A DNA stretch of 64,000 bases from Eledone cirrhosa (lineage: Eukaryota), in NCBI GenBank assembly GCA_964016885.1, contig OZ024745.1, forward strand, positions 48,422,001 through 48,486,000, given 5' to 3'. A program made the position numbers and the translations under genes. Within the stretch, counting starts at the first letter, position 1; every line of letters begins with the position of its first letter. Under the pieces are notes generated by a model. The model saw nothing but the letters and a program-made list of their open reading frames with translations, did no database searches and was not told where the DNA came from. Shown piece by piece: positions 6,641 through 64,000 of this stretch.

Positions 6641-6743
6641 ATATATATATATATATATGTATATGTATGTATATGTATGTATATGTATATGTATATATAT
6701 ATATATGTATATGTATGTATATGTATATGTATATGTATATATG

Positions 6744-6814
<71 letters not shown>

Positions 6815-6940
6815 GTATATATGTATATATATATGTATATATGTATATATATATATGTATATATGTATATATATATATATGTATATATGTATATATATAT
6901 ATATGTATATATACATATACATATACATACATATACATAC

Positions 6941-6971
<31 letters not shown>

Positions 6972-6973
<2 letters not shown>

Positions 6974-7250
6974 TCTGGGAAATGGTCGTGCTTGGTGTGT
7001 AGGAAAGGCGTAGGTAGAAACTCCATTTTATGTCCTAAATGCAAAGTATGGGTGCATAAAAGATGTAGTGGGATCACAGGTAAGCTAACTAAGAACATAG
7101 ATTTTACATGTGGCCGGTGTTCTGGTGCAATAAGTAGCAGCAAGTGCCCACAAAATACTAGCTCTTTCAATTGCGCAGAGGGTTCTATAGAAATAGTGGA
7201 CAGCTTCCGTTACCTGGGCGATAAAATCAGCAGTGGGGGAGGGTGCTCTG
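6972..7250 (+). mobile_element. RTE family A internal fragment (PHD-finger segment), inverted mirror of 6361-6640
   Basis: Near-identical to 8237-8517 and to the reverse complement of 6361-6640. It is joined to the downstream copy through a repeated GAGGGTGCTCT. Confidence 0.9.

Positions 7251-9544: not shown

Positions 9545-9546
<2 letters not shown>
7251..9546 (+). mobile_element. RTE-clade LINE family A, 5'-truncated (no endonuclease), uninterrupted RT frame to 9040, 3'UTR and (GAT)n tail
   Basis: Motifs [42 protein letters not shown] (8084-8095), [25 protein letters not shown] are typical of RTE-clade RT. Ends in TGATGATG. Confidence 0.95.
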
Positions 9547-9580
<34 letters not shown>

Positions 9581-10710: not shown

Positions 10711-11441
<731 letters not shown>

Positions 11442-17070: not shown

Positions 17071-17370
17071 ATATTTATATACATATATATATTTATATAC
17101 ATATATTTATATACATATATACATATATTTATATACATATATATATATACATACATATACATACATATATTTATATACATATATTTATATACATATATAT
17201 ATATATATATATACATACATATATTTATATACATACATATATTTATATATATACATATATACATATATTTATATACATATATATATATACATACATATAT
17301 TTATATACATACATATATTTATATATATACATATATTTATATATGTACATATATTTATATATATATACAT

Positions 17371-17805
17371 CATCATCATCATCATCATCATCACCGTTTT
17401 ACGTCCGTTCTTCCACGCTAGCATGGGTTAGACGGGTTGTCCTGTTGTGGGCAGTGTCTGGTCGGCTGACCATGCCTTGCTCATACAGGAACTGATCTGG
17501 CTTGATTTCTACAGCTGGATGCCCTTCCTAACACCAACCTCATTTACAGTGAGTGCTGGGTGCTTTTTCGTGGCGCCTACACGTCCACTTTACAGTGTGG
17601 GCTGGGTGCTTTTTTGCCGTGGCACCTCCACGACCACCTTGCGGTGGGGGGGGGGGGCATATTGTTTATATGCTTCAGCATGTACCCATGGGAGGTCGGG
17701 TACCCTGTATTACTGCGTGACGCCAGAAGTCACGGTCGTGTGTCATTGACTTTGAGAGGTGTAGTTGGGTAAGGTCAGCTTTTATCACCTCATCCCAAGT
17801 CATCA
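17371..17805 (-). mobile_element. RTE family B 3' end
   Basis: Reverse complement of about 10880-11305, with a (CAT)n tail on the + strand. Confidence 0.88.
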
Positions 17806-17842
17806 TGCATATTTATATATATATACATATACATACATACAT

Positions 17843-20630: not shown

Positions 20631-20970
20631 GGAGGCACATGGCATAGTGATTAGAGCATTGGCCTTGCAATCGAAAGGTTGTGAGTTCAATTCTCAGACC
20701 GGGTGATGTGTTGTTTCCTTGAGCAAGACACTTTATTTCACATTGCTCCAGTTTACTCAGCTGTAGAAATGAGATGATAGGGACTAGGGTCCATATCATT
20801 CCACTGCAAAGTGGCCGTGGAGGTGCCACGGCAAAAAAAGCACCCAGCACTCACTGTAAATGAGGTTGGTGTTAGGAAGGGCATCCAGCTGTAGAAATCA
20901 AGCCAGAATCAGTTCACGTCCCACCCTTGCAAGTAGGGAAAAAGCGGACGTGAAATGATGATGATGATGA
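20631..20970 (+). mobile_element. Full-length tRNA-derived SINE with RTE-derived 3' end
   Basis: A box TGGCATAGTGATTAG, B box GAGTTCAATTCT, core TCCTTGAGCAAGACACTT, RTE-B-like UTR block, RTE-C-like terminus and (GAT)n. A second copy lies at 35010-35353 (-). Confidence 0.88.
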
Positions 20971-34513: not shown

Positions 34514-35009
34514 AAATATAAACGGAGTCAAAGACTCTCATTATTCCATGTAAATTATGTGCTCAAAGGAAAAGGAATCCTGAGCTCTTCAAAATACAAT
34601 ATGTAGAAAGGATAAGACGCTAGAGAGAGATAGAGTGTGTGCGATCACAGGGAAACCACCAGTGTATGGAAACTATGGAAGGTAAGGTAGACACATAATA
34701 ATTAAAAATATAAATCAAAACGTGTATACGCACCTCTATAACTATATAACACACACGTACATCATCATCACATAGAAATGACTTTTACAGTACTAGAACT
34801 ATTTCATTTATTTGAAATCATCAGTATGAAACATCTCTAGTCCTTTAGAAGTTATTTATATATTAAATAAATACATGCCTTCTCTAGTAATGTCTTGAGT
34901 GCCATATTGAACTGTGGTTCTGTTCCATTCTTCTTTCGAAAATCATAAAACTATTTTCAAATATGTATATATATATATGTATATATAAATGTAATCTGAG
35001 TTTTTCGAA

Positions 35010-35353
35010 TCATCATCATCATCATTTCATTTTACGTCCACTTTTTCCCTGCTTGCAAGGGTGGGACGGGAACTGATTTTGGCTTGATTTCTACAGCTGG
35101 ATGCCTTTCCTAACACCAACCTCATTTACAGTGAGTGCTGGGTGCTTTTTTGCCGTGACACCTCCACGACCACTTTGTAGTGGAATGATAGGGACCCCAG
35201 TCCCTATCATCTCATTTCTACAGCTGAGTAAACTGGAGCAATGTGAAATAAAGTGTCTTGCTCAAGGAAACAACACATCACCCGGTCTGAGAATTGAACT
35301 CACAACCTTTCGATTGCAAGGCCAATGCTCTTACCGCTAAGCCATGTGCCTCC
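35010..35353 (-). mobile_element. Full-length tRNA-SINE with RTE tail (same family as 20631-20970)
   Basis: Reverse complement matches 20631-20970 over its whole length. Confidence 0.88.
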
Positions 35354-38064: not shown

Positions 38065-38330
38065 TCCGAAACAAATGAGGTCGTGTAGGTGTCACGACAA
38101 AAAAAACACACAGTCCACGCTGTAATGTGGCCATGTAGGTGACACGGTAAAAACCTCCCAGTCCACACTGTAAACGTGGTTGGTGTTAGGAAGGGCATCC
38201 AGCCATAGAAAACCCGCCAGACGGTCCTGAGCAAGACAACCAATCTTGACTCAAGTGGGACAATTCCTGTCCAGACCCATGCTAGCGTGGAAGATGGACG
38301 TTAAACGATGATGATGATGATGATGATGAT
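38065..38330 (+). mobile_element. RTE family A-related 3'UTR fragment with (GAT)n tail
   Basis: Matches 9167-9546 without the internal duplication. Confidence 0.85.
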
Positions 38331-42993: not shown

Positions 42994-43051
<58 letters not shown>

Positions 43052-43170
43052 CCACCACTATCATGATCATGATCATGATCATGATCATCACCACCACCAC
43101 CACCACCACCACCACCACCACCACCACCACCACCACCACCACCACCACCATCACCATCATCATCATCATT
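42777..43170. repeat. (CAT)n/(CAC)n trinucleotide tract adjoining a decayed RTE/SINE tail
   Basis: Directly visible. It continues into TTTATGTTTGCTTTCCATGTTGGCAT, an antisense RTE-type terminus. Confidence 0.9.
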
Positions 43171-43898
43171 TTATGTTTGCTTTCCATGTTGGCATTTGTT
43201 GGATGGACTGTTACACTCCTTGTCAGTCCTTATATGGAGTTAGTACTCTCCCTCTCAGGTTGGATTTCTTCTTCATTCATTCCAATGTTTAGCGTGGTTT
43301 CTATGGCTGGATGCTCTTCCTAGCCACTTTACAGTGTAAATATTTAAGTATAATTATTGATACAGATCTATATGAGCAAGACTCTGTCTCATGACCTGAC
43401 TTGTCTCATAACATGACAAACCATCTAATCCATGCAAGCGTCGAAAATGGACATTAAATGATGATGACGATGATGATTAAATAACAGAAATCTTTAAACT
43501 CGTTTAAATTATGAGCTTTTTTAATAATTGGATCTAATTTGTTAATATTGATTGTTGTTAATTAGATTAACTTATGTATATAATTACTTAAATTGCTGCT
43601 TGTACTTTAGTTGTTGTATGTCCAGTTTAGAATTGTCACCATATCCCTGTGAGTCAAAATGGTTACCACCAGAAACGCATTCGGTCATAAAACATTCTCT
43701 GAAAAAGGAGCATATAATGTCTATAAACCTGTGATGGGGATGTCCCAAGCTAACCCCTACTTTAGCAGAGAAAATGGCCTTAAAGCACTTGTTATAATGA
43801 AAGTGTAACAAAAGAAAAAAATTCCGAGATTTTAAGAAGTTCCTTCAGCTGGTTTAGATTATGCATAATCCTGACTCTGCACATAAAAGTACATATAT

Positions 43899-44889: not shown

Positions 44890-47800
44890 GGTGCGTTTTG
44901 TTGTGACTCCTACATGATCTCTTTACAGTGTAGGCTGAGTACTTTTTGTTGTGACTCCTACATGATCTCTTTACAGTGTAGGCTGAGTGCTTTTTGTTGT
45001 GACTCCTACATGATCTCTTTACAGTGTAGGCTGAGTGCTTTTTGTTGTGACTCCTACATGATCTCTTTACAGTGTAGGCTGAGTGCTTTTTGTTGTGACT
45101 CCTACATGATCTCTTTACAGTGTAGGCTGAGTGCTTTTTGTTGTGACTACTACATGATCACTATACAGTGAGGGTTGGGTAATTTTGTTGTGACTCCTAC
45201 ATAATCACTACACAGTGGGGGCTGGGTGCTTTTTGATATGACACCTATATGACCACTTTACAGTGTAGGCTGAGTGCTTTTTGTTGTGACACCTACATGA
45301 CCTCTTTACAGTGTAGGCTGAGTGCTTTTTGTTGTGACTCCTACATCATCACTTTACAGTGTAGGCTGGGTGCTTTTTGTTGTGACTCCTACATGATCTC
45401 TTTACAGTGTAGGCTGAGTGCTTTTTGTTGTGACTCCTACATGATCTCTTTACAATGTAGGCTGAGTGCTTTTTGTTGTGACTCCTACATGATCTCTATA
45501 CAGTGTAGGCTGAGTACTTTTTGTTGTGACTCCTACATGATCTCTTTACAGTGTAGGCTGAGTACATTTTGTTGTGACTCCTACATGATCTCTTTACAGT
45601 GTAGGCTGAGTACTTTTTGTTGTGACTCCTACATGATCTCTTTACAGTGTAGGCTGAGTGCTTTTTGTTGTGACTCCTACATGACCTCTTTACAGTGTAG
45701 GCTGAGTGCTTTTTGTTGTGACTCCTACATGATCTCTTTACAATGTAGGCTGAGTACTTTTTGTTGTGACTCCTACATGATCTCTTTACAGTGTAGGCTG
45801 AGTGCTTTTTGTTGTGACTCCTACATGATCTCTTTACAGTGTAGGCTGAGTGCTTTTTGTTGTGACTCCTACATGATCTCTTTACAGTGTAGGCTGAGTA
45901 CTTTTTGTTGTGACTCCTACATGATCTCTTTACAGTGTAGGCTGAGTGCTTTTTGTTGTGACTCCTACATGATCTCTTTACAGTGTAGGCTGAGTGCTTT
46001 TTGTTGTGACTCCTACATGATCTCTTTACAGTGTAGGCTGAGTGCTTTTTGTTGTGACTCCTACATGATCTCTTTACAGTGTAGGCTGAGTACTTTTTGT
46101 TGTGACTCCAACATGATCTCTTTACAATGTAGGCTGAGTGCTTTTTGTTGTGACTTCTACATGATCTCTATACAGTGTAGGCTGAGTGCTTTTTGTTGTG
46201 ACTCCTACATGATCACTTTACAGTGTAGGCTGAGTGCTTTTTGTTGTGACTCCTACATGATCTCTATACAATGTAGGCTGAGTGCTTTTTGTTGTGATTC
46301 CTACATTATCTCTTTACAGTGTAGGCTGAGTGCTTTTTGTTGTGACTCCTACATGATCTCTTTACAGTGTAGGCTGAGTGCTTTTTGTTGTGACTCCTAC
46401 ATGATCTCTTTACAGTGTAGGCTGAGTACTTTTTGTTGTGACTCCTACATGATCTCTTTACAGTGTAGGCTGAGTACTTTTTGTTGTGACTCCAACATGA
46501 TCTCTTTACAATGTAGGCTGAGTGCTTTTTGTTGTGATTCCTACATGACCTCTTTACAGTGTAGGCTGAGTGCTTTTTGTTGTGACTTCTACACGATCTC
46601 TATACAGTGTAGGCTGAGTGCTTTTTGTTGTGACTCCTACATGATCTCTTTACAGTGTAGGCTGAGTACTTTTTGTTGTGACTCCTACATGATCTCTTTA
46701 CAGTGTAGGCTGAGTGCTTTTTGTTGTGACTCCTACATGATCTCTTTACAGTGTAGGCTGAGTGCTTTTTGTTGTGATTCCTACATGATCTCTTTACAGT
46801 GTAGGCTGAGTGCTTTTTGTTGTGACTCCTACATGATCTCTTTACAGTGTAGGCTGAGTGCTTTTTGTTGTGACTCCTACATGATCACTTTACAGTGTAG
46901 GCTGAGTGCTTTTTGTTGTGACTCCTTCATGATCTCTTTACAGTGTAGGCTGAGTGCTTTTTGTTGTGACTCCTACATGATCTCTTTACAGTGTAGGCTG
47001 AGTACTTTTTGTTGTGACTCCTACATTATCTCTATACAATGTAGGCTGAGTGCTTTTTGTTGTGACTCCTACATTATCTCTATACAATGTAGGCTGAGTA
47101 CTTTTTGTTGTGACTCCTACATGATCTCTTTACAGTGTAGGCTGAGTACTTTTTGTTGTGACTCCTACATTATCTCTATACAATGTAGGCTGAGTACTTT
47201 TTGTTGTGACTCCTACATTATCTCTATACAATGTAGGCTGAGTGCTTTTTGTTGTGACTCCTACATGATCTCTTTACAGTGTAGGCTGAGTGCTTTTTGT
47301 TGTGACTCCTACATGATCTCTTTACAGTGTAGGCTGGGTGCTTTTTGTTGTGACTCCTACATGATCACTATACAGTGTAGGCTGAGTGCTTTTTGTTGTG
47401 ACTCCTACATGATCTCTTTACAATGTAGGCTGAGTACTTTTTGTTGTGACTCCTACATGATCTCTATACAGTGTAGGCTGAGTGCTTTTTGTTGTGACTC
47501 CTACATGATCTCTTTACAATGTAGGCTGAGTGCTTTTTGTTGTGACTCCTACATGATCTCTTTACAATGTAGGCTGAGTGCTTTTTGTTGTGACTCCAAC
47601 ATGATCTCTTTACAGTGTAGGCTGAGTGCTTTTTGTTGTGACTCCTACATGATCTCTTTACAGTGTAGGCTGAGTACTTTTTGTTGTGACTCCTACATGA
47701 TCTCTTTACAATGTAGGCTGAGTGCTTTTTGTTGTGACTCCTACATGATCTCTTTACAATGTAGGCTGAGTGCTTTTTGTTGTGACTCCTACATGATCTC

Positions 47801-50800
47801 TTTACAATGTAGGCTGAGTGCTTTTTGTTGTGACTCCAACATGATCTCTTTACAGTGTAGGCTGAGTGCTTTTTGTTGTGACTCCTACATGATCTCTATA
47901 CAGTGTAGGCTGAGTGCTTTTTGTTGTGACTCCTACATGATCTCTTTACAATGTAGGCTGAGTGCTTTTTGTTGTGACTCCAACATGATCTCTTTACAGT
48001 GTAGGCTGAGTGCTTTTTGTTGTGACTCCTACATGATCTCTATACAGTGTAGGCTGAGTGCTTTTTGTTGTGACTCCTACATGATCTCTTTACAGTGTAG
48101 GCTGAGTACTTTTTGTTGTGACTCCTACATGATCTCTTTACAGTGTAGGCTGAGTACTTTTTGTTGTGACTCCTACATGATCTCTTTACAGTGTAGGCTG
48201 AGTACTTTTTGTTGTGACTCCTACATTATCTCTTTACAGTGTAGGCTGAGTACTTTTTGTTGTGACTCCTACATTATCTCTTTACAGAGTAGGCTGAGTG
48301 CTTTTTGTTGTGACTCCTACATGATCTCTTTACAGTGTAGGCTGAGTACTTTTTGTTGTGACTCCTACATGATCACTTTACAGTGTAGGCTGAGTGCTTT
48401 TTGTTGTGACTCTTACATGATCTCTTTACAGTGTAGGCTGAGTGCTTTTTGTTGTGACTCCTACATGATCACTATACAGTGAGGGTTGGGTAATTTTGTT
48501 GTGACTCCTACATGATCACTACACAGTGGGGCTGGGTGCTTTTTGATATGACACCTATATGACCACTTTACAGTGTAGGCTGAGTGCTTTTTGTTGTGAC
48601 ACCTACATGACCTCTTTACAGTGTAGGCTGAGTGCTTTTTGTTGTGACTCCTACATGATCTCTTTACAATGTAGGCTGAGTGCTTTTTGTTGTGACTCCT
48701 ACATGATCTCTTTACAGTGTAGGCTGAGTGCTTTTTGTTGTGACTCCTACATGATCTCTTTACAGTGTAGGCTGAGTACTTTTTGTTGTGACTCATACAT
48801 TATCTCTATACAATGTAGGCTGAGTGCTTTTTGTTGTGACTCCTACATGATCTCTATACAGGTGTAGGCTGAGTGCTTTTTGTTGTGACTCCTACATGAT
48901 CTCTATACAGTGTAGGCTGAGTGCTTTTTGTTGTGACTCCTACATGATCTCTATACAGTGTAGGCTGAGTGCTTTTTGTTGTGACTCCTACATGATCTCT
49001 TTACAGTGTAGGCTGAGTACTTTTTGTTGTGACTCCTACATTATCTCTTTACAGTGTAGGCTGAGTGCTTTTTGTTGTGACTCCTACATTATCTCTTTAC
49101 AGTGTAGGCTGAGTACTTTTTGTTGTGACTCCTACATGATCTCTATACAATGTAGGCTGAGTGCTTTTTGTTGTGACTCCTACATTATCTCTATACAGTG
49201 TAGGCTGAGTGCTTTTTGTTGTGACTCCTACATGATCACTTTACAGTGTAGGCTGAGTACTTTTTGTTGTGACTCCTACATTATCTCTTTACAATGTAGG
49301 CTGAGTACTTTTTGTTGTGACTCCTACATGATCACTTTACAATGTAGGCTGAGTGCTTTTTGTTGTGACTCCTACATGATGTCTTTACAATGTAGGCTGA
49401 GTACTTTTTGTTGTGACTCCTACATTATCTCTATACAGTGTAGGCTGAGTACTTTTTGTTGTGACTCCTACATTATCTCTATACAATGTAGGCTGAGTGC
49501 TTTTTGTTGTGACTCCTACATGACCTCTTTACAGTGTAGGCTGAGTGCTTTTTGTTGTGACTCCTACATGATCTCTTTACAATGTAGGCTGAGTGCTTTT
49601 TGTTGTGACTCCTACATTATCTCTATACAGTGTAGGCTGAGTGCTTTTTGTTGTGACTCCTACATGATCTCTTTACAGTGTAGGCTGAGTACTTTTTGTT
49701 GTGACTCCTACATTATCTCTTTACAGTGTAGGCTGAGTACTTTTTGTTGTGACTCCTACATTATCTCTTTACAATGTAGGCTGAGTGCTTTTTGTTGTGA
49801 CTCCTACATTATCTCTATACAGTGTAGGCTGAGTGCTTTTTGTTGTGACTCCTACATTATCTCTTTACAATGTAGGCTGAGTGCTTTTTGTTGTGACTCC
49901 TACATGATCTCTTTACAGTGTAGGCTGAGTACTTTTTGTTGTGACTCCTACATTATCTCTTTACAGTGTAGGCTGAGTACTTTTTGTTGTGACTCCTACA
50001 TGATCTCTATACAATGTAGGCTGAGTGCTTTTTGTTGTGACTCCTACATTATCTCTATACAGTGTAGGCTGAGTGCTTTTTGTTGTGACTCCTACATTAT
50101 CTCTTTACAATGTAGGCTGAGTACTTTTTGTTGTGACTCCTACATTATCTCTTTACAATGTAGGCTGAGTGCTTTTTGTTGTGACTCCTACATTATCTCT
50201 TTACAATGTAGGCTGAGTACTTTTTGTTGTGACTCCTACATGATCACTTTACAATGTAGGCTGAGTGCTTTTTGTTGTGACTCCTACATTATCTCTATAC
50301 AGTGTAGGCTGAGTGCTTTTTGTTGTGACTCCTACATTATCTCTATACAGTGTAGGCTGAGTGCTTTTTGTTGTGACTCCTACATGATCACTTTACAATG
50401 TAGGCTGAGTGCTTTTTGTTGTGACTCCTACATTATCTCTTTACAGTGTAGGCTGAGTGCTTTTTGTTGTGACTCCTACATGATCACTTTACAATGTAGG
50501 CTGAGTGCTTTTTGTTGTGACTCCTACATTATCTCTTTACAATGTAGGCTGAGTACTTTTTGTTGTGACTCCTACATGATCACTTTACAATGTAGGCTGA
50601 GTGCTTTTTGTTGTGACTCCTACATTATCTCTATACAGTGTAGGCTGAGTGCTTTTTGTTGTGACTCCTACATGATCACTTTACAATGTAGGCTGAGTGC
50701 TTTTTGTTGTGACTCCAACATGATCTCTATACAGTGTAGGCTGAGTGCTTTTTGTTGTGACTCCTACATTATCTCTTTACAGTGTAGGCTGAGTGCTTTT

Positions 50801-53800
50801 TGTTGTGACTCCTACATGATCACTTTACAGTGTAGGCTGAGTACTTTTTGTTGTGACTCCTACATTATCTCTATACAATGTAGGCTGAGTGCTTTTTGTT
50901 GTGACTCCTACATTATCTCTTTACAGTGTAGGCTGAGTACTTTTTGTTGTGACTCCTACATGATCACTTTACAATGTAGGCTGAGTGCTTTTTGTTGTGA
51001 CTCCTACATGATCTCTTTACAATGTAGGCTGAGTGCTTTTTGTTGTGACTCCTACATTATCTCTATACAATGTAGGCTGAGTGCTTTTTGTTGTGACTCC
51101 TACATGATCACTTTACAATGTAGGCTGAGTGCTTTTTGTTGTGACTCCAACATGATCTCTATACAGTGTAGGCTGAGTGCTTTTTGTTGTGACTCCTACA
51201 TTATCTCTTTACAGTGTAGGCTGAGTGCTTTTTGTTGTGACTCCTACATGATCACTTTACAGTGTAGGCTGAGTACTTTTTGTTGTGACTCCTACATTAT
51301 CTCTATACAATGTAGGCTGAGTGCTTTTTGTTGTGACTCCTACATTATCTCTTTACAGTGTAGGCTGAGTACTTTTTGTTGTGACTCCTACATGATCACT
51401 TTACAATGTAGGCTGAGTGCTTTTTGTTGTGACTCCTACATGATCTCTTTACAATGTAGGCTGAGTGCTTTTTGTTGTGACTCCTACATTATCTCTATAC
51501 AATGTAGGCTGAGTGCTTTTTGTTGTGACTCCTACATGATCACTTTACAATGTAGGCTGAGTGCTTTTTGTTGTGACTCCAACATGATCTCTATACAGTG
51601 TAGGCTGAGTGCTTTTTGTTGTGACTCCTACATGATCACTTTACAGTGTAGGCTGAGTGCTTTTTGTTGTGACTCCTACATGATCACTTTACAGTGTAGG
51701 CTGAGTGCTTTTTGTTGTGACTCCTACATCATCACTATACAGTGTAGGCTGAGTACTTTTTGTTGTGACTCCTACATGATCTCTTTACAGTGTAGGCTGA
51801 GTGCTTTTTGTTGTGACTCCTACATTATCTCTATACAGTGTAGGCTGAGTACTTTTTGTTGTGACTCCTACATTATCTCTATACAATGTAGGCTGAGTGC
51901 TTTTTGTTGTGACTCCTACATGACCTCTTTACAGTGTAGGCTGAGTGCTTTTTGTTGTGACTCCTACATGATCTCTTTACAGTGTAGGCTGGGTGCTTTT
52001 TGTTGTGACTCCTACATGATCTCTTTACAGTGTAGGCTGAGTACTTTTTGTTGTGACTCCTACATTATCTCTATACAGTGTAGGCTGAGTGCTTTTTGTT
52101 GTGACTCCTACATGATCTCTTTACAGTGTAGGCTGGGTGCTTTTTGTTGTGACTCCTACATGACCTCTTTACAGTGTAGGCTGAGTGCTTTTTGTTGTGA
52201 CTCCTACATGATCTCTTTACAATGTAGGCTGAGTGCTTTTTGTTGTGACTCCTACATGATCTCTTTACAGTGTAGGCTGAGTGCTTTTTGTTGTGACTCC
52301 TACATGATCTCTTTACAGTGTAGGCTGAGTACTTTTTGTTGTGACTCCTACATGATCTCTATACAGTGTAGGCTGAGTGCTTTTTGTTGTGACTCCTACA
52401 TGATCACTTTACAATGTAGGCTGAGTACTTTTTGTTGTGACTCCTACATGATCTCTTTACAGTGTAGGCTGAGTACTTTTTGTTGTGACTCCTACATGAT
52501 CACTTTACAGTGTAGGCTGAGTACTTTTTGTTGTGACTCCTACATGATCTCTTTACAGTGTAGGCTGAGTGCTTTTTGTTGTGACTCCTACATGATCTCT
52601 TTACAGTGTAGGCTGAGTACTTTTTGTTGTGACTCCTACATGATCTCTTTACAGTGTAGGCTGAGTGCTTTTTGTTGTGACTCCTACATTATCACTTTAC
52701 AATGTAGGCTGAGTGCTTTTTGTTGTGACTCCTACATTATCTCTTTACAGTGTAGGCTGAGTACTTTTTGTTGTGACTCCTACATCATCACTTTACAGTG
52801 TAGGCTGAGTACTTTTTGTTGTGACACCTACATGACCTCTTTACAGTGTAGGCTGAGTGCTTTTTGTTGTGACTCCTACATCATCACTTTACAGTGTAGG
52901 CTGAGTGCTTTTTGTTGTGACTTCTACATGATCTCTATACAGTGTAGGCTGAGTGCTTTTTGTTGTGACTCCTACATGATCTCTTTACAATGTAGGCTGA
53001 GTGCTTTTTGTTGTGACTCCTACATTATCTCTTTACAATGTAGGCTGAGTGCTATTTGTTGTGACTCCTACATGATCTCTATACAGTGTAGGCTGAGTAC
53101 TTTTTGTTGTGACTCCTACATGATCTCTTTACAGTGTAGGCTGAGTGCTTTTTGTTGTGACTCCTACATGATCTCTTTACAATGTAGGCTGAGTGCTTTT
53201 TGTTGTGACTCCTACATGATCTCTTTACAGTGTAGGCTGAGTACTTTTTGTTGTGACTCCTACATGATCTCTATACAGTGTAGGCTGAGTACTTTTTGTT
53301 GTGACTCCTACATGATCTCTTTACAGTGTAGGCTGAGTGCTTTTTGTGGTGACTCCTACATGATCTCTTTACAATGTAGGCTGAGTGCTTTTTGTTGTGA
53401 CTCCTACATGATCTCTTTACAGTGTAGGCTGAGTGCTTTTTGTTGTGACTCCTACATGATCTCTTTACAATGTAGGCTGAGTGCTTTTTGTTGTGACTCC
53501 TACATGATCTCTTTACAATGTAGGCTGAGTGCTTTTTGTTGTGACTCCTACATTATCTCTTTACAGTGTAGGCTGAGTACTTTTTGTTGTGACTCCTACA
53601 TGATCTCTTTACAATGTAGGCTGAGTACTTTTTGTTGTGACTCCTACATTATCTCTTTACAGTGTAGGCTGAGTACTTTTTGTTGTGACTCCTACATGAT
53701 CACTTTACAGTGTAGGCTGAGTGCTTTTTGTTGTGACTCCTACATTATCTCTTTACAGTGTAGGCTGAGTGCTTTTTGTTGTGACTCCTACATGATCTCT

Positions 53801-56800
53801 TTACAGTGTAGGCTGAGTGCTTTTTGTTGTGACTCCTACATGATCTCTTTACAGTGTAGGCTGAGTGCTTTTTGTTGTGACTCCTACATGATCTCTTTAC
53901 AATGTAGGCTGAGTACTTTTTGTTGTGACTCCTACATGATCTCTTTACAATGTAGGCTGAGTACTTTTTGTTGTGACTCCTACATGATCACTTTACAGTG
54001 TAGGCTGAGTGCTTTTTGTTGTGACTCCTACATTATCTCTTTACAGTGTAGGCTGAGTGCTTTTTGTTGTGACTCCTACATGATCTCTTTACAGTGTAGG
54101 CTGAGTGCTTTTTGTTGTGACTCCTACATTATCTCTTTACAGTGTAGGCTGAGTGCTTTTTGTTGTGACTCCTACATTATCTCTTTACAGTGTAGGCTGA
54201 GTGCTTTTTGTTGTGACTCCTACATGATCTCTTTACAGTGTAGGCTGAGTGCTTTTTGTTGTGACTCCTACATGATCTCTTTACAATGTAGGCTGAGTAC
54301 TTTTTGTTGTGACTCCTACATGATCACTTTACAGTGTAGGCTGAGTGCTTTTTGTTGTGACTCCTACATTATCTCTTTACAGTGTAGGCTGAGTGCTTTT
54401 TGTTGTGACTCCTACATCATCACTTTACAATGTAGGCTGAGTGCTTTTTGTTGTGACTCCTACATGATCTCTTTACAGTGTAGGCTGAGTGCTTTTTGTT
54501 GTGACTCCTACATGATCTCTTTACAGTGTAGGCTGAGTGCTTTTTGTTGTGACTCCTACATCATCACTTTACAATGTAGGCTGAGTGCTTTTTGTTGTGA
54601 CTCCTACATGATCTCTTTACAGTGTAGGCTGAGTGCTTTTTGTTGTGACTCCTACATGATCTCTTTACAGTGTAGGCTGAGTGCTTTTTGTTGTGACTCC
54701 TACATGATCTCTTTACAGTGTAGGCTGAGTACTTTTTGTTGTGACTCCTACATGATCACTTTACAGTGTAGGCTGAGTGCTTTTTGTTGTGACTCCTACA
54801 TTATCTCTTTACAGTGTAGGCTGAGTGCTTTTTGTTGTGACTCCTACATCATCACTTTACAATGTAGGCTGAGTGCTTTTTGTTGTGACTCCTACATGAT
54901 CTCTTTACAGTGTAGGCTGAGTGCTTTTTGTTGTGACTCCTACATGATCTCTTTACAGTGTAGGCTGAGTGCTTTTTGTTGTGACTCCTACATGATCTCT
55001 TTACAATGTAGGCTGAGTGCTTTTTGTTGTGACTCCTACATGATCTCTTTACAATGTAGGCTGAGTGCTTTTTGTTGTGACTCCTACATTATCTCTTTAC
55101 AGTGTAGGCTGAGTGCTTTTTGTTGTGACTCCTACATCATCACTTTACAATGTAGGCTGAGTGCTTTTTGTTGTGACTCCTACATGATCTCTATACAGTG
55201 TAGGCTGAGTGCTTTTTGTTGTGACTCCTACATGATCTCTTTACAGTGTAGGCTGAGTGCTTTTTGTTGTGACTCCTACATGACCTCTTTACAGTGTAGG
55301 CTGAGTACTTTTTGTTGTGACTCCTACATGATCTCTATACAGTGTAGGCTGAGTGCTTTTTGTTGTGACTCCTACATTATCTCTATACAGTGTAGGCTGA
55401 GTGCTTTTTGTTGTGACTCCTACATGATCTCTATACAGTGTAGGCTGAGTGCTTTTTGTTGTGACTCCTACATGATCTCTATACAGTGTAGGCTGAGTGC
55501 TTTTTGTTGTGACTCCTACATGATCTCTTTACAGTGTAGGCTGAGTGCTTTTTGTTGTGACTCCTACATGATCTCTTTACAGTGTAGGCTGAGTGCTTTT
55601 TGTTGTGACTCCTACATCATCACTTTACAATGTAGGCTGAGTGCTTTTTGTTGTGACTCCTACATGATCTCTATACAGTGTAGGCTGAGTGCTTTTTGTT
55701 GTGACTCCTACATTATCTCTATACAGTGTAGGCTGAGTGCTTTTTGTTGTGACTCCTACATGATCTCTTTACAGTGTAGGCTGAGTGCTTTTTGTTGTGA
55801 CTCCTACATGACCTCTTTACAGTGTAGGCTGAGTACTTTTTGTTGTGACTCCTACATGATCTCTATACAGTGTAGGCTGAGTGCTTTTTGTTGTGACTCC
55901 TACATTATCTCTATACAGTGTAGGCTGAGTGCTTTTTGTTGTGACTCCTACATGATCTCTTTACAGTGTAGGCTGAGTGCTTTTTGTTGTGACTCCTACA
56001 TGATCTCTTTACAATGTAGGCTGAGTACTTTTTGTTGTGACTCCTACATTATCTCTATACAGTGTAGGCTGAGTACTTTTTGTTGTGACTCCTACATGAT
56101 CTCTTTACAGTGTAGGCTGAGTGCTTTTTGTTGTGACTCCTACATGATCTCTTTACAGTGTAGGCTGAGTGCTTTTTGTTGTGACTCCTACATCATCACT
56201 TTACAATGTAGGCTGAGTGCTTTTTGTTGTGACTCCTACATGATCTCTATACAGTGTAGGCTGAGTGCTTTTTGTTGTGACTCCTACATTATCTCTATAC
56301 AGTGTAGGCTGAGTGCTTATTGTTGTGACTCCTACATGATCTCTTTACAGTGTAGGCTGAGTGCTTTTTGTTGTGACTCCTACATGACCTCTTTACAGTG
56401 TAGGCTGAGTACTTTTTGTTGTGACTCCTACATGATCTCTATACAGTGTAGGCTGAGTGCTTTTTGTTGTGACTCCTACATTATCTCTATACAGTGTAGG
56501 CTGAGTGCTTTTTGTTGTGACTCCTACATGATCTCTTTACAGTGTAGGCTGAGTGCTTTTTGTTGTGACTCCTACATGATCTCTTTACAATGTAGGCTGA
56601 GTACTTTTTGTTGTGACTCCTACATTATCTCTATACAGTGTAGGCTGAGTACTTTTTGTTGTGACTCCTACATTATCTCTATACAATGTAGGCTGAGTGC
56701 TTTTTGTTGTGACTCCTACATGATCTCTTTACAGTGTAGGCTGAGTGCTTTTTGTTGTGACTCCTACATGATCTCTTTACAGTGTAGGCTGAGTGCTTTT

Positions 56801-59800
56801 TGTTGTGACTCCTACATGATCTCTTTACAATGTAGGCTGAGTGCTTTTTGTTGTGACTCCTACATGATCTCTATACAGTGTAGGCTGAGTGCTTTTTGTT
56901 GTGACTCCTACATGATCTCTTTACAGTGTAGGATGAGTGCTTTTTGTTGTGACTCCTACATTATCTCTTTACAGTGTAGGCTGAGTGCTTTTTGTTGTGA
57001 CTCCTACATGATCACTTTACAGTGTAGGCTGAGTACTTTTTGTTGTGACTCCTACATGATCTCTATACAGTGTAGGCTGAGTGCTTTTTGTTGTGACTCC
57101 TACATTATCTCTTTACAGTGTAGGCTGAGTGCTTTTTGTTGTGACTCCTACATGACCTCTTTACAGTGTAGGCTGAGTGCTTTTTGTTGTGACTCCTACA
57201 TGATCTCTTTACAGTGTAGGCTGAGTGCTTTTTGTTGTGACTCCTACATGATCTCTATACAGTGTAGGCTGAGTGCTTTTTGTTGTGACTCCTACATGAT
57301 CTCTTTACAATGTAGGCTGGGTGCTTTTTGTTGTGACTCCTACATGATCACTTTACAGTGTAGGCTGAGTACTTTTTGTTGTGACTCCTACATGATCTCT
57401 TTACAGTGTAGGCTGAGTACTTTTTGTTGTGACTCCTACATGATCACTTTACAGTGTAGGCTGAGTGCTTTTTGTTGTGACTCCTACATGATCTCTTTAC
57501 AGTGTAGGCTGAGTGCTTTTTGTTGTGACTCCTACATGATCTCTTTACAATGTAGGCTGAGTGTTTTTTGTTGTGACTCCTACATGATCTCTTTACAATG
57601 TAGGCTGAGTGCTTTTTGTTGTGACTCCTACATGATCTCTTTACAATGTAGGCTGAGTGCTTTTTGTTGTGACTCCAACATGATCTCTATACAGTGTAGG
57701 CTGAGTGCTTTTTGTTGTGACTCCTACATTATCTCTTTACAGTGTAGGCTGAGTGCTTTTTGTTGTGACTCCTACATGATCACTTTACAGTGTAGGCTGA
57801 GTACTTTTTGTTGTGACTCCTACATGATCTCTTTACAGTGTAGGCTGAGTGCTTTTTGTTGTGACTCCTACATTATCTCTATACAGTGTAGGCTGAGTAC
57901 TTTTGGTTGTGACTCCTACATTATCTCTATACAATGTAGGCTGAGTGCTTTTTGTTGTGACTCCTACATGACCTCTTTACAGTGTAGGCTGAGTGCTTTT
58001 TGTTGTGACTCCTACATGATCTCTTTACAGTGTAGGCTGGGTGCTTTTTGTTGTGACTCCTACATGATCTCTTTACAGTGTAGGCTGAGTACTTTTTGTT
58101 GTGACTCCTACATTATCTCTATACAGTGTAGGCTGAGTGCTTTTTGTTGTGACTCCTACATGATCTCTTTACAGTGTAGGCTGGGTGCTTTTTGTTGTGA
58201 CTCCTACATGACCTCTTTACAGTGTAGGCTGAGTGCTTTTTGTTGTGACTCCTACATGATCTCTTTACAATGTAGGCTGAGTGCTTTTTGTTGTGACTCC
58301 TACATGATCTCTTTACAGTGTAGGCTGAGTGCTTTTTGTTGTGACTCCTACATGATCTCTTTACAGTGTAGGCTGAGTACTTTTTGTTGTGACTCCTACA
58401 TGATCTCTATACAGTGTAGGCTGAGTGCTTTTTGTTGTGACTCCTACATGATCACTTTACAATGTAGGCTGAGTACTTTTTGTTGTGACTCCTACATGAT
58501 CTCTTTACAGTGTAGGCTGAGTACTTTTTGTTGTGACTCCTACATGATCACTTTACAGTGTAGGCTGAGTACTTTTTGTTGTGACTCCTACATGATCTCT
58601 TTACAGTGTAGGCTGAGTGCTTTTTGTTGTGACTCCTACATGATCTCTTTACAGTGTAGGCTGAGTACTTTTTGTTGTGACTCCTACATGATCTCTTTAC
58701 AGTGTAGGCTGAGTGCTTTTTGTTGTGACTCCTACATTATCACTTTACAATGTAGGCTGAGTGCTTTTTGTTGTGACTCCTACATTATCTCTTTACAGTG
58801 TAGGCTGAGTACTTTTTGTTGTGACTCCTACATCATCACTTTACAGTGTAGGCTGAGTACTTTTTGTTGTGACACCTACATGACCTCTTTACAGTGTAGG
58901 CTGAGTGCTTTTTGTTGTGACTCCTACATCATCACTTTACAGTGTAGGCTGAGTGCTTTTTGTTGTGACTTCTACATGATCTCTATACAGTGTAGGCTGA
59001 GTGCTTTTTGTTGTGACTCCTACATGATCTCTTTACAATGTAGGCTGAGTGCTTTTTGTTGTGACTCCTACATTATCTCTTTACAATGTAGGCTGAGTGC
59101 TATTTGTTGTGACTCCTACATGATCTCTATACAGTGTAGGCTGAGTACTTTTTGTTGTGACTCCTACATGATCTCTTTACAGTGTAGGCTGAGTGCTTTT
59201 TGTTGTGACTCCTACATGATCTCTTTACAATGTAGGCTGAGTGCTTTTTGTTGTGACTCCTACATGATCTCTTTACAGTGTAGGCTGAGTACTTTTTGTT
59301 GTGACTCCTACATGATCTCTATACAGTGTAGGCTGAGTACTTTTTGTTGTGACTCCTACATGATCTCTTTACAGTGTAGGCTGAGTGCTTTTTGTTGTGA
59401 CTCCTACATGATCTCTTTACAATGTAGGCTGAGTGCTTTTTGTTGTGACTCCTACATGATCTCTTTACAGTGTAGGCTGAGTGCTTTTTGTTGTGACTCC
59501 TACATGATCTCTTTACAATGTAGGCTGAGTGCTTTTTGTTGTGACTCCTACATGATCTCTTTACAATGTAGGCTGAGTGCTTTTTGTTGTGACTCCTACA
59601 TTATCTCTTTACAGTGTAGGCTGAGTACTTTTTGTTGTGACTCCTACATGATCTCTTTACAATGTAGGCTGAGTACTTTTTGTTGTGACTCCTACATTAT
59701 CTCTTTACAGTGTAGGCTGAGTACTTTTTGTTGTGACTCCTACATGATCACTTTACAGTGTAGGCTGAGTGCTTTTTGTTGTGACTCCTACATTATCTCT

Positions 59801-62800
59801 TTACAGTGTAGGCTGAGTGCTTTTTGTTGTGACTCCTACATGATCTCTTTACAGTGTAGGCTGAGTGCTTTTTGTTGTGACTCCTACATGATCTCTTTAC
59901 AGTGTAGGCTGAGTGCTTTTTGTTGTGACTCCTACATGATCTCTTTACAATGTAGGCTGAGTACTTTTTGTTGTGACTCCTACATGATCTCTTTACAATG
60001 TAGGCTGAGTACTTTTTGTTGTGACTCCTACATGATCACTTTACAGTGTAGGCTGAGTGCTTTTTGTTGTGACTCCTACATTATCTCTTTACAGTGTAAG
60101 CTGAGTGCTTTTTGTTGTGACTCCTACATGATCTCTTTACAGTGTAGGCTGAGTGCTTTTTGTTGTGACTCCTACATTATCTCTTTACAGTGTAGGCTGA
60201 GTGCTTTTTGTTGTGACTCCTACATTATCTCTTTACAGTGTAGGCTGAGTGCTTTTTGTTGTGACTCCTACATGATCTCTTTACAGTGTAGGCTGAGTGC
60301 TTTTTGTTGTGACTCCTACATGATCTCTTTACAATGTAGGCTGAGTACTTTTTGTTGTGACTCCTACATGATCACTTTACAGTGTAGGCTGAGTGCTTTT
60401 TGTTGTGACTCCTACATTATCTCTTTACAGTGTAGGCTGAGTGCTTTTTGTTGTGACTCCTACATCATCACTTTACAATGTAGGCTGAGTGCTTTTTGTT
60501 GTGACTCCTACATGATCTCTTTACAGTGTAGGCTGAGTGCTTTTTGTTGTGACTCCTACATGATCTCTTTACAGTGTAGGCTGAGTGCTTTTTGTTGTGA
60601 CTCCTACATCATCACTTTACAATGTAGGCTGAGTGCTTTTTGTTGTGACTCCTACATGATCTCTTTACAGTGTAGGCTGAGTGCTTTTTGTTGTGACTCC
60701 TACATGATCTCTTTACAGTGTAGGCTGAGTGCTTTTTGTTGTGACTCCTACATGATCTCTTTACAGTGTAGGCTGAGTACTTTTTGTTGTGACTCCTACA
60801 TGATCACTTTACAGTGTAGGCTGAGTGCTTTTTGTTGTGACTCCTACATTATCTCTTTACAGTGTAGGCTGAGTGCTTTTTGTTGTGACTCCTACATCAT
60901 CACTTTACAATGTAGGCTGAGTGCTTTTTGTTGTGACTCCTACATGATCTCTTTACAGTGTAGGCTGAGTGCTTTTTGTTGTGACTCCTACATGATCTCT
61001 TTACAGTGTAGGCTGAGTGCTTTTTGTTGTGACTCCTACATGATCTCTTTACAATGTAGGCTGAGTGCTTTTTGTTGTGACTCCTACATGATCTCTTTAC
61101 AATGTAGGCTGAGTGCTTTTTGTTGTGACTCCTACATTATCTCTTTACAGTGTAGGCTGAGTGCTTTTTGTTGTGACTCCTACATCATCACTTTACAATG
61201 TAGGCTGAGTGCTTTTTGTTGTGACTCCTACATGATCTCTATACAGTGTAGGCTGAGTGCTTTTTGTTGTGACTCCTACATGATCTCTTTACAGTGTAGG
61301 CTGAGTGCTTTTTGTTGTGACTCCTACATTACCTCTTTACAGTGTAGGCTGAGTACTTTTTGTTGTGACTCCTACATGATCTCTATACAGTGTAGGCTGA
61401 GTGCTTTTTGTTGTGACTCCTACATTATCTCTATACAGTGTAGGCTGAGTGCTTTTTGTTGTGACTCCTACATGATCTCTATACAGTGTAGGCTGAGTGC
61501 TTTTTGTTGTGACTCCTACATGATCTCTATACAGTGTAGGCTGAGTGCTTTTTGTTGTGACTCCTACATGATCTCTTTACAGTGTAGGCTGAGTGCTTTT
61601 TGTTGTGACTCCTACATGATCTCTTTACAGTGTAGGCTGAGTGCTTTTTGTTGTGACTCCTACATCATCACTTTACAATGTAGGCTGAGTGCTTTTTGTT
61701 GTGACTCCTACATGATCTCTATACAGTGTAGGCTGAGTGCTTTTTGTTGTGACTCCTACATTATCTCTATACAGTGTAGGCTGAGTGCTTTTTGTTGTGA
61801 CTCCTACATGATCTCTTTACAGTGTAGGCTGAGTGCTTTTTGTTGTGACTCCTACATGACCTCTTTACAGTGTAGGCTGAGTACTTTTTGTTGTGACTCC
61901 TACATGATCTCTATACAGTGTAGGCTGAGTGCTTTTTGTTGTGACTCCTACATTATCTCTATACAGTGTAGGCTGAGTGCTTTTTGTTGTGACTCCTACA
62001 TGATCTCTTTACAGTGTAGGCTGAGTGCTTTTTGTTGTGACTCCTACATGATCTCTTTACAATGTAGGCTGAGTACTTTTTGTTGTGACTCCTACATTAT
62101 CTCTATACAGTGTAGGCTGAGTACTTTTTGTTGTGACTCCTACATTATCTCTATACAATGTAGGCTGAGTGCTTTTTGTTGTGACTCCTACATGATCTCT
62201 TTACAGTGTAGGCTGAGTGCTTTTTGTTGTGACTCCTACATGATCTCTTTACAGTGTAGGCTGAGTGCTTTTTGTTGTGACTCCTACATCATCACTTTAC
62301 AATGTAGGCTGAGTGCTTTTTGTTGTGACTCCTACATGATCTCTATACAGTGTAGGCTGAGTGCTTTTTGTTGTGACTCCTACATTATCTCTATACAGTG
62401 TAGGCTGAGTGCTTTTTGTTGTGACTCCTACATGATCTCTTTACAGTGTAGGCTGAGTGCTTTTTGTTGTGACTCCTACATGACCTCTTTACAGTGTAGG
62501 CTGAGTACTTTTTGTTGTGACTCCTACATGATCTCTATACAGTGTAGGCTGAGTGCTTTTTGTTGTGACTCCTACATTATCTCTATACAGTGTAGGCTGA
62601 GTGCTTTTTGTTGTGACTCCTACATGATCTCTTTACAGTGTAGGCTGAGTGCTTTTTGTTGTGACTCCTACATGATCTCTTTACAATGTAGGCTGAGTAC
62701 TTTTTGTTGTGACTCCTACATTATCTCTATACAGTGTAGGCTGAGTACTTTTTGTTGTGACTCCTACATTATCTCTATACAATGTAGGCTGAGTGCTTTT

Positions 62801-64000
62801 TGTTGTGACTCCTACATGATCTCTTTACAGTGTAGGCTGAGTGCTTTTTGTTGTGACTCCTACATGATCTCTTTACAGTGTAGGCTGAGTGCTTTTTGTT
62901 GTGACTCCTACATGATCTCTTTACAATGTAGGCTGAGTGCTTTTTGTTGTGACTCCTACATGATCTCTATACAGTGTAGGCTGAGTGCTTTTTGTTGTGA
63001 CTCCTACATGATCTCTTTACAGTGTAGGATGAGTGCTTTTTGTTGTGACTCCTACATTATCTCTTTACAGTGTAGGCTGAGTGCTTTTTGTTGTGACTCC
63101 TACATGATCACTTTACAGTGTAGGCTGAGTACTTTTTGTTGTGACTCCTACATGATCTCTATACAGTGTAGGCTGAGTGCTTTTTGTTGTGACTCCTACA
63201 TTATCTCTTTACAGTGTAGGCTGAGTGCTTTTTGTTGTGACTCCTACATGACCTCTTTACAGTGTAGGCTGAGTCCTTTTTGTTGTGACTCCTACATGAT
63301 CTCTTTACAGTGTAGGCTGAGTGCTTTTTGTTGTGACTCCTACATGATCTCTATACAGTGTAGGCTGAGTGCTTTTTGTTGTGACTCCTACATGATCTCT
63401 TTACAATGTAGGCTGGGTGCTTTTTGTTGTGACTCCTACATGATCACTTTACAGTGTAGGCTGAGTACTTTTTGTTGTGACTCCTACATGATCTCTTTAC
63501 AGTGTAGGCTGAGTACTTTTTGTTGTGACTCCTACATGATCACTTTACAGTGTAGGCTGAGTGCTTTTTGTTGTGACTCCTACATGATCTCTTTACAGTG
63601 TAGGCTGAGTGCTTTTTGTTGTGACTCCTACATGATCTCTTTACAATGTAGGCTGAGTGTTTTTTGTTGTGACTCCTACATGATCTCTTTACAATGTAGG
63701 CTGAGTGCTTTTTGTTGTGACTCCTACATGATCTCTTTACAATGTAGGCTGAGTGCTTTTTGTTGTGACTCCTACATGATCTCTTTACAATGTAGGCTGA
63801 GTGCTTTTTGTTGTGACTCCTACATTATCTCTTTACAATGTAGGCTGAGTGCTTTTTGTTGTGACTCCTACATGATCTCTTTACAATGTAGGCTGAGTGT
63901 TTTTTGTTGTGACTCCTACATGATCTCTTTACAATGTAGGCTGAGTGCTTTTTGTTGTGACTCCTACATGATCTCTTTACAATGTAGGCTGAGTGTTTTT
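44890..64000. repeat. 48-bp tandem satellite, about 398 units, runs off the window end
   Basis: Consensus TTTACAGTGTAGGCTGAGTGCTTTTTGTTGTGACTCCTACATGATCTC with about 6 common variable sites. A 1-nt insertion lies at about 48861. Confidence 0.98.

What the first reader, a model, noticed from the sequence alone, without database searches (positions are those of the whole stretch)
44890..64000. 19-kb satellite apparently derived from a repeat unit of the RTE 3'UTR
Seen: the 48-bp monomer aligns without gaps at 41/48 to the reverse complement of 9178-9225 (TTTACAGCGTGGACTGTGTGTTTTTTGTCGTGACACCTACATGATCTC). The UTRs of RTE A and B already contain 2-3 diverged tandem units of about 47-50 bp (9178-9275, 17543-17640). 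Rare satellite variants (GACACCTAC, GGCTGGGTGC, GACCACTTTAC) match the LINE state. Inference: a UTR module shared by LINEs and SINEs seeded a satellite, whose + strand transcripts would be antisense to several retroelement families.
Basis: partly seen in the sequence, partly recalled or inferred. Interest (0 to 1): 0.72.

Follow-up and report, generated by a model that had tools for sequence, protein, structure and literature searches.

The report
Satellite grown from LINE tail repeat
A 19.4-kb block of 48-base repeats is one of many arrays of a unit carried in the tail of a very abundant jumping-gene (LINE/SINE) family, and it likely grew in place by repeated duplication, which is a known way for mobile elements to seed satellite DNA.

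Summary
A 48-bp tandem array runs from 44891 to 289 nt past the window end: about 19.4 kb, 404 monomers, 97% identical to their consensus. The consensus matches the reverse complement of 9178-9225 at 41/48, while shuffled monomers reach only 27-31.

The direction of descent is very likely retroelement to satellite. An exact 46-mer of the retroelement tail occurs 41,439 times in the 3-Gb genome. The exact satellite consensus occurs 81 times, all in this array. In 23 of 27 other 48-bp arrays with a readable downstream end, the array runs into the conserved LINE/SINE tail. Three of them have the LINE ORF end just upstream. One array of at least 34 kb is still fused to its tail. The array has 2 CpG in 19.4 kb, where the retroelement units carry CpG.

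- This is not a one-off seeding. It is one young, locus-private variant of a genome-wide family with at least 17,857 strict-pattern units.
- LINE A is not the nearest relative.
- Neither flank of this array keeps any retroelement remnant.

The antisense-transcript idea could not be tested. RTE clade membership is unverified. Overall this is a new member of a known kind.

The parts
44891..64000 (-). 48-bp tandem array. The sense of the parent LINE is the minus strand. It continues 289 nt beyond the window: 404 monomers, about 19.4 kb.
   Evidence: TRF; monomer chopping; extension. All 81 of 81 exact-consensus 48-mers in the genome lie here.
45131..45330 (-). Block of 3-4 diverged monomers carrying retroelement-like states. 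It is duplicated at 48442-48631.
48442..48631 (-). Second copy of the diverged monomer block.
51945..57992 (-). First copy of a ~6.06-kb (126-127 monomer) internal tandem duplication. The second copy is 57993-64100 in extended coordinates. Identity is 99.6%, with one 48-nt indel.
57993..64000 (-). Second copy of the internal 6-kb duplication. It runs past the window end.
6584..9040 (+). LINE A open frame of 818 aa (RVT_1, PHD finger). Its N-terminal part repeats residues ~531-690, so the copy is rearranged.
9041..9549 (+). LINE A 3'UTR: C-rich leader, 48-50-nt units, conserved core (GGTGTTAGGAAGGGCATCC...), distal tail and a terminal (GAT)n.
9178..9275 (+). Two tandem units in the LINE A UTR. 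9178-9225 is the 41/48 match to the satellite.
17349..17807 (-). 5'-truncated LINE copy of the 'B-type' tail: last ~40 codons of the ORF, two units at 17637-17543, core, (GAT)n.
10875..11330 (+). Second B-type copy, 95% identical to 17807-17349. ORF homology extends back to ~10690. Units lie at about 11045-11141.
20631..20970 (+). SINE-like short element: a distinct 5' head, one 50-nt unit (20811-20860), the same core and tail, (GAT)n.
   Evidence: ARAGORN found no tRNA.
35000..35300 (-). Second copy of the SINE-like element, with one unit and the shared tail.
5472..5844 (-). A-type LINE tail copy (91-96% to LINE A UTR).
38066..38328 (+). A-type LINE tail copy (88-91%).
43146..43337 (-). 5'-truncated tail fragment in the same orientation as the array, 1.55 kb downstream of it, followed by (GAT/GGT)n at 42856-43169. 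It is probably an independent insertion.

Best explanation
The 19.4-kb array is a young, locus-private member of a genome-wide family of 48-bp tandem arrays that sit in the 3'UTR of an abundant LINE family, and it likely arose when a short LINE-borne run of units that had already lost its CpGs was amplified in place by unequal exchange and block duplication.

Shown by the calls or the sequence:
- The monomer is homologous to the UTR unit.
- The unit also occurs in SINE-like elements that share the tail.
- At other loci, arrays of 5 to more than 700 units lie between the LINE ORF end or UTR leader and the conserved tail core.
- This array's consensus is found nowhere else in the genome.
- The array contains multi-monomer and 6-kb internal duplications.

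Inferred:
- The seed reached this locus as part of a LINE or 5'-truncated LINE insertion.
- The non-repeat parts of that insertion were later lost.
- Growth was by unequal crossing-over or replication slippage.
- The array has no function of its own and is a neutral by-product.
For: (1) Homology. The match is 41/48 ungapped at 9178-9225, against a maximum of 31 in 40 shuffles.

(2) Abundance asymmetry. An exact 46-mer spanning the unit end and the tail core occurs 41,439 times, with 0 in the reversed control. A DNA search with the tail returned nothing, and the tool warns that it skips words that are very common. The exact satellite consensus occurs 81 times, all within C5:48466987-48485608, which is this array.

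(3) Intermediates, first sample. Twenty loci were taken from the hits, and 14 of them have the downstream array boundary inside the fetched DNA. In 13 of these the array abuts the tail; L017 is the exception.

(4) Intermediates, second sample. Seventeen C1 loci were taken from the list, giving 13 readable boundaries. Ten have the tail, one of them with the core deleted.

(5) Position within real LINE copies. L004, L007 and L013 have the LINE ORF C-terminus, to residues ~807-817 of 818, just upstream of the array.

(6) A satellite-sized array still attached. An array of at least 34.4 kb (C1: up to 5496416) runs straight into the tail (E 2.9e-42).

(7) Polarity from CpG decay. The array has 2 CpG in 19,399 nt against 697 GpC. 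Retroelement units and some arrays (L013, L016, L021) have CG where the satellite has CA.

(8) An NJ tree places the window's monomers as one tight tip cluster nested among retroelement-attached arrays and retroelement units.

(9) Retroelement-like variants sit at the far edge of the array (64233-64289) and in a duplicated block near the other edge.

(10) Growth by block duplication. There are 9- and 13-monomer repeats and a 6.06-kb duplicate at 99.6% identity.

(11) This array is more homogeneous (95% adjacent matches) than two larger arrays (89-92%).
Against: - No tail, ORF or UTR leader is detectable next to this array. nhmmer with a tail profile finds nothing adjacent. Flank-versus-tail local alignments are not above shuffles: 12 of 200 shuffles equal or beat the left flank and 74 of 200 the right. 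The link to a LINE insertion at this locus therefore rests on homology and analogy alone.
- Four of the 27 other arrays also lack an adjacent tail (L017, L029, L036, L039), so another route of spread cannot be excluded.
- The satellite is a mosaic. Its first half is closer to LINE A's unit and its second half to the B-type and array units. No exact source subfamily was identified.
- The NJ tree rests on 48 columns and has no support values.
- The 99.6% 6-kb duplicate could be an assembly artefact. The only independent-looking check was one 715-nt contig across the left junction, and it may come from the same sample as the assembly.
- How much of the length was inherited from an already expanded LINE master, and how much was gained in place, is not resolved.
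Confidence: 0.8

Rival explanations
1. Reverse capture. A pre-existing 48-bp satellite was picked up by a LINE, for example by 3' transduction or template switching, and became its UTR module.
For: The UTR itself looks built from old tandem units: units 1 and 2, and perhaps the core. Tandem structure is therefore ancient in this region. Arrays are numerous.
Against: - The module is present in at least two diverged LINE tail subfamilies (about 75-80% identical) and in SINE-like elements, with 41,439 exact 46-mer hits.
- This satellite variant is confined to one locus.
- The satellite lacks CpG where retroelement units keep them.
- Arrays occupy one fixed position inside the element.
Confidence: 0.03
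2. The array was not seeded by a retrotransposition event at this locus. It was copied here from another array by a DNA-level route such as segmental duplication, extrachromosomal-circle reinsertion or ectopic recombination.
For: No retroelement tail, (GAT)n or UTR leader abuts either end. Four of 27 other arrays also end abruptly in non-retroelement DNA.
Against: - No other locus carries the exact consensus.
- The best other arrays are only 78-91% identical over 144 nt.
- Edge monomers are degenerate and retroelement-like, as expected for an old in-situ boundary.
- Loss of the ~250-nt tail by deletion is an equally simple account.
Confidence: 0.12
3. The length or internal structure of the array is partly an assembly artefact, for example the 6-kb duplicate.
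For: Two 6.06-kb blocks are 99.6% identical. Such arrays are hard to assemble. The read-laying tool could not lay the repeat interior.
Against: The left junction is bridged without a difference by a 715-nt contig of run X1. Sixty-two monomer variants in a non-random order argue for a real, structured array. Arrays of 30 kb or more of the same family exist elsewhere in the assembly.
Confidence: 0.1

Closest known systems
PisTR-A satellite from the hypervariable 3'UTR tandem repeats of Ogre LTR retrotransposons in pea. Seen in review PMC9659126 (passages and Table 1). See also PMC7004042, for which only the search listing and abstract start were seen.
   Same: A retroelement carries a variable run of tandem repeats in its 3'UTR. 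Short arrays are spread with the element, and some are amplified into long satellite arrays.
   Different: The element here is a non-LTR LINE with SINE-like partners in an animal (probably a mollusc). The monomer is 48 bp, and arrays remain fused to a conserved LINE tail core.
Cetacean common satellite related to the L1 3' end, and chicken HinfI/SCR1 satellite related to the CR1 3'UTR plus part of ORF2 (PMC9659126 Table 1).
   Same: Satellite monomers are homologous to the 3' end or UTR of a LINE.
   Different: In those cases, as far as the passages I saw describe them, the monomer is a piece of the LINE. Here the unit is already a tandem module inside the UTR, and a full series from 2 units to 34 kb or more is visible in one genome.
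18HT satellite from the HeT-A/TART 3'UTR in Drosophila (PMC9659126).
   Same: A non-LTR 3' non-coding region gave rise to a satellite.
   Different: Those are telomere-specific elements. The array here is interstitial: 48.47 Mb on a 134.7-Mb contig.
satDNA-like arrays dispersed by Helentron non-autonomous elements in the Pacific oyster (PMC7492417; only the search listing and abstract start were seen).
   Same: In a mollusc genome, many short satellite-like arrays are scattered because a mobile element carries them.
   Different: The carrier there is a rolling-circle DNA element. Here it is a LINE/SINE tail spread by reverse transcription (an inference from the (GAT)n ends and the 5' truncations).

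Membership tests
Satellite DNA (long homogeneous tandem array) | Head-to-tail monomers in an array of many kb with high inter-monomer identity | tested here: met
   404 monomers, 19.4 kb, 95% adjacent matches and 97.1% identity to the consensus.
Satellite DNA (long homogeneous tandem array) | Centromeric, pericentromeric or heterochromatic location | not testable with these tools
   Only the position is known: 48.47 Mb of a 134.7-Mb contig. No chromatin or cytological data are available.
Transposable-element-derived satellite | Monomer homologous to an internal segment of a mobile element, beyond chance | tested here: met
   41/48 against a maximum of 31 in 40 shuffles; alignment to 9 tail copies.
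Transposable-element-derived satellite | Intermediate forms: short arrays of the unit inside element copies | tested here: met
   23 of 27 arrays with a readable downstream boundary are fused to the tail. Three have the ORF end upstream. One fused array is at least 34 kb.
Transposable-element-derived satellite | Polarity: the element state is ancestral | tested here: met
   41,439 against 81 exact hits. CG in retroelement units against CA in the satellite, with 2 CpG in 19.4 kb. The evidence comes from within one genome only; no dated outgroup was available.
Transposable-element-derived satellite | Element remnants flanking this particular array | tested here: not met
   Nothing adjacent by nhmmer. 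Flank alignments are not above shuffles.
RTE clade of non-LTR retrotransposons | Single ORF with an N-terminal apurinic-type endonuclease followed by RT | tested here: inconclusive
   Only RVT_1 and a PHD finger were found in the 818-aa frame. No endonuclease family was found in 50 frame fragments of three degraded array-bearing copies. No full-length copy was examined.
RTE clade of non-LTR retrotransposons | 3' end with a microsatellite-like repeat instead of poly(A), shared with partner SINEs | tested here: met
   The tail copies aligned end in (GAT)n, and SINE-like elements share the tail. That this feature is typical of RTE-related retroposons comes from the abstract of PMC6007223.
RTE clade of non-LTR retrotransposons | RT phylogeny groups with RTE references | not tested
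   No reference RT set was available. The Atlas neighbours are unnamed RVT_1+PHD clusters, with Mollusca the commonest phylum.
Small-RNA (piRNA/siRNA) source locus antisense to retroelements | Transcription of the + strand and small RNAs mapping to the array | not testable with these tools
   No RNA run was listed for the stretch.

The most novel reading that the evidence does not exclude
A LINE family in this mollusc-like genome acts as a genome-wide disseminator of satellite seeds. Its 3'UTR carries an expandable 48-bp module that is retrotransposed to many hundreds of sites and repeatedly blows up into arrays of 20-35 kb or more. Because the long arrays are retroelement sequence in bulk, their transcripts could feed a small-RNA pathway that polices the LINE/SINE superfamily, which has more than 41,000 copies.
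Probability: 0.1. Interest if true: 0.6.

Novelty: new member of a known kind. Interest (0 to 1): 0.33.

Why it matters
The case gives an unusually complete series within one genome. The steps run from a 1-unit SINE-like tail, through 2-unit LINE UTRs and 5-60-unit arrays still inside LINE copies, to arrays of 30 kb or more, one of them still fused to its tail, and finally to a homogenised, locus-private 19.4-kb array with no retroelement flank. That makes the birth of a satellite from a non-LTR retroelement traceable step by step in an animal group where my two searches turned up no paper on the subject.

The practical point is for annotation. These arrays should be labelled as derivatives of the LINE/SINE tail, not as an independent satellite family. 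Nothing here suggests a new mechanism.

Tried and rejected
- An interrupted element. A same-strand tail fragment at 43146-43337 lies 1.55 kb downstream of the array, and its start is in phase with the array's break. However, the intervening 1.4 kb is mostly unique DNA plus an old ~350-bp dispersed repeat, not one insertion. I rejected this as unsupported.
- A retroelement remnant in the immediate flanks. Short eye-matches (ATCAAGCCA...AAACATG) are not above shuffles.
- RNA evidence. No RNA holder was listed, so expression and the antisense idea stay untested.
The left junction was laid instead. In runs of three other coded organisms, contig cover was limited to the monomers. X4 has 43-49-nt contigs with 0-2 differences, and X5 and X6 have 4-10 differences per ~60 nt. 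This is too little to name a range of species.
- A DNA search of the genome with the B-type tail returned nothing; the tool warns that it skips very common words. It was replaced by an exact pattern.
- Secondary structure. Satellite dimers fold no better than shuffles (z +0.47 and +0.15), so there is no hairpin-driven model.
- A tRNA origin for the SINE-like head. ARAGORN found nothing in 1-44900.
- An endonuclease domain to confirm RTE. None was found in degraded copies.
- Earlier notes of this scan: none near this place.
- Literature. No paper holds the 16-nt core motif. The searches listed no paper on cephalopod or mollusc LINE-derived satellites among the titles shown.
Full report
**What is there**

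TRF finds a single 48-bp array from 44891 to the window end, with 398.2 copies and 95% matches. The window is G000:C5:48422001-48486000 in a 3.0-Gb genome. After fetching the next 30 kb, the array proves to end only 289 nt further on, at extended coordinate 64289, in AT-rich DNA that matched no retroelement query. Chopping gives 404 monomers. Of these, 400 are exactly 48 nt long and average 1.41 differences from the consensus, which is 97.1% identity. Sixty-two variants occur among the 398 in-window monomers, and 81 monomers equal the consensus.

The array is structured. It contains 9- and 13-monomer repeats and a tandem duplicate of 126-127 monomers. That duplicate, 51945-58004 against 57993-64100, differs at 24 of 6060 aligned positions plus one 48-nt indel, which is 99.6% identity.

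**The claimed match**

An exhaustive scan of all rotations on both strands of 1-44880 gives a best match of 41/48 at 9178-9225 on the reverse strand. Forty shuffled monomers reach 27-31. The match lies in the 3'UTR of a LINE whose 818-aa open frame (6584-9040) carries RVT_1 (E 1.9e-32) and a PHD finger.

The UTR (9041-9549) has this order:
- a C-rich leader;
- two clear 48-50-nt units (9178-9225 and 9226-9275);
- a conserved core (TG.GGTTGGTGTTAGGAAGGGCATCC...);
- a distal tail;
- a terminal (GAT)n.

The same tail occurs nine times in the 94 kb examined, in two subfamilies:
- A-type: 9041-9549, 5472-5844 (minus), 38066-38328, and extended 83320-83626.
- B-type: 17349-17807 (minus), 10875-11330, two SINE-like copies at 20631-20970 and 35000-35300 (minus), and extended 85938-86102 (minus).

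That copy retains the last ~40 codons of a LINE ORF. The SINE-like element has a different head, one unit (20811-20860), and the same core and tail. ARAGORN did not recognise a tRNA in it.

**Other loci decide the interpretation**

A 144-nt piece of the array hits 48-bp arrays on at least 15 contigs at 78-91% identity, with 1073 first-look candidates of which 39 were scored.

First sample. I fetched 20 of these loci. In 14 of them the downstream boundary of the array, in LINE sense, lies inside the fetched DNA. In 13 of those the array runs directly into the tail core. L017 instead abuts an unrelated ~95-bp repeat. In L004, L007 and L013 the LINE ORF C-terminus, to residues ~807-817 of 818, lies just upstream of the array. 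The arrays therefore sit in the 3'UTR of real LINE copies. Those arrays have 5 to 50 or more units, each with private variants, and their consensus units match the window consensus at 40-44 of 48 positions.

Second sample. I chose this one by a strict 35-place pattern for the generic unit-to-unit junction. That pattern occurs 17,857 times, with 0 in the reversed control. Seventeen loci on contig C1 were fetched, giving 13 readable boundaries. Nine have the full tail and one has a tail with the core deleted. L029, L036 and L039 have no adjacent tail.

Combined, 23 of 27 arrays carry the tail. Extending two of the C1 loci showed an array of at least 34.4 kb that still ends in the tail (C1:5496421-5496610, E 2.9e-42) and another of at least 30 kb. 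These two arrays are less homogeneous (89-92% adjacent matches) than the window's (95%).

**Direction of descent**

- An exact 46-mer spanning the unit end and the tail core occurs 41,439 times. The exact satellite consensus occurs 81 times, all in this one array.
- The array has 2 CpG in 19,399 nt against 697 GpC. The retroelement units, and the arrays L013, L016 and L021, have CG at the positions where the satellite has CA. That is the expected direction of CpG decay.
- Retroelement-like states survive at the far edge of the array (64233-64289) and in a duplicated block at 45131-45330 and 48442-48631.
- A neighbour-joining tree of units places all common window variants in one tight tip cluster inside the retroelement-attached arrays, with the CpG-retaining arrays and retroelement units basal. 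It rests on 48 columns, has no support values and is descriptive only.

Together these make capture of a satellite by the LINE very unlikely.

**What remains open for this array**

Neither flank holds a retroelement remnant. A tail profile finds nothing adjacent, and flank-versus-tail alignments are not above shuffles. A same-strand tail fragment lies 1.55 kb downstream, in phase with the array's break. The DNA between is mostly unique, so I treat the fragment as a separate insertion.

The satellite is a mosaic of A-like (GAGATCATG...) and B/array-like (...AAAAAGCAC.CAGCC.ACACTGTAAA) states, with one private state, T at unit position 32. No exact source subfamily was found.

How much of the length came in with an already expanded LINE, and how much was gained here, is unknown. 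The locus-private consensus and the internal block duplications argue that most of the growth was local.

The left junction is bridged without a difference by a 715-nt contig of run X1, which may be the assembly's own sample.

**Mechanism and function**

Inferred mechanism: a LINE-borne minisatellite is spread by retrotransposition, with 5' truncation often falling inside the array. L006, L008, L010 and L015 start abruptly in non-retroelement DNA and end in tail + (GAT)n. The array then grows by unequal exchange or slippage and homogenises locally. The monomer has no notable fold (z +0.15 and +0.47).

No evidence bears on function. No RNA run was listed, so the antisense-transcript proposal is untested.

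**Comparison with known cases**

Origin of satellites from retroelement 3' regions is established. Review PMC9659126 (passages and Table 1 seen) lists:
- PisTR-A from the Ogre 3'UTR;
- the cetacean common satellite from the L1 3' end;
- chicken HinfI from the CR1 3'UTR;
- 18HT from HeT-A/TART.

Dispersal of short satellite-like arrays by a mobile element in a mollusc is described for oyster Helentrons (PMC7492417, listing only).

The label 'RTE' fits the microsatellite 3' end shared with SINEs (abstract of PMC6007223). It was not verified: no endonuclease domain was found and no RT phylogeny was made. The Atlas places the RT among unnamed RVT_1+PHD clusters, with Mollusca the commonest phylum.

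**Verdict**

This is a new member of a known kind, of modest interest, and a clean series of intermediates for satellite birth from a LINE tail.

Noticed in passing
window 605-5473, 9550-9784, 11305-11508, 12454-13371, 17070-17367: TA-rich microsatellites, up to 4.9 kb, directly abut the (GAT)n 3' ends of at least five LINE tail copies. This may reflect either a target preference for (TA)n or growth of (TA)n at LINE ends.
   Followed up: no
window 9209-9440: A 112-bp tandem duplication (2.1 copies, 98%) inside the LINE A UTR covers unit 2 and the core. It is also present in the 99.7% identical copy at L002 (extended 83320-83626). It is a second kind of tandem growth in the same UTR.
   Followed up: partly
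window 6584-9040: In the 818-aa LINE frame, residues ~87-237 repeat residues ~531-690, with two PHD hits. The copy is therefore internally rearranged or nested, not a clean full-length element.
   Followed up: partly
G000:C1:5462000-5496416 and C1:2431002-2460999 (L031, L037, L038, L044-L049): Two arrays of the same 48-bp family are larger than the one in the window, at 34.4 kb or more and 30 kb or more. Both run off the fetched DNA. The first still ends in the LINE tail.
   Followed up: partly
genome-wide: The strict array-junction pattern is strand-asymmetric in the assembly, with 11,838 forward and 6,019 reverse hits. This suggests a few very large arrays in one orientation.
   Followed up: no
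L009 1344-1750 (C14:41.91 Mb) versus window 17393-17800: A B-type tail copy on another contig is 99-100% identical to the window copy, which suggests very recent activity of this LINE tail subfamily.
   Followed up: no
L017 1-180 (C28:118.62 Mb): A 48-bp array ends against a different tandem repeat of ~95 bp instead of the LINE tail.
   Followed up: no
window 14818-17106 (minus): A second, distantly related LINE RT is present (RVT_1 E 2.1e-30, about 31% identical to LINE A's RT). It is unrelated to the satellite.
   Followed up: no
window 42856-43169: The terminal microsatellite of a truncated tail copy has grown into a 314-bp compound (GAT)n/(GGT)n tract.
   Followed up: no
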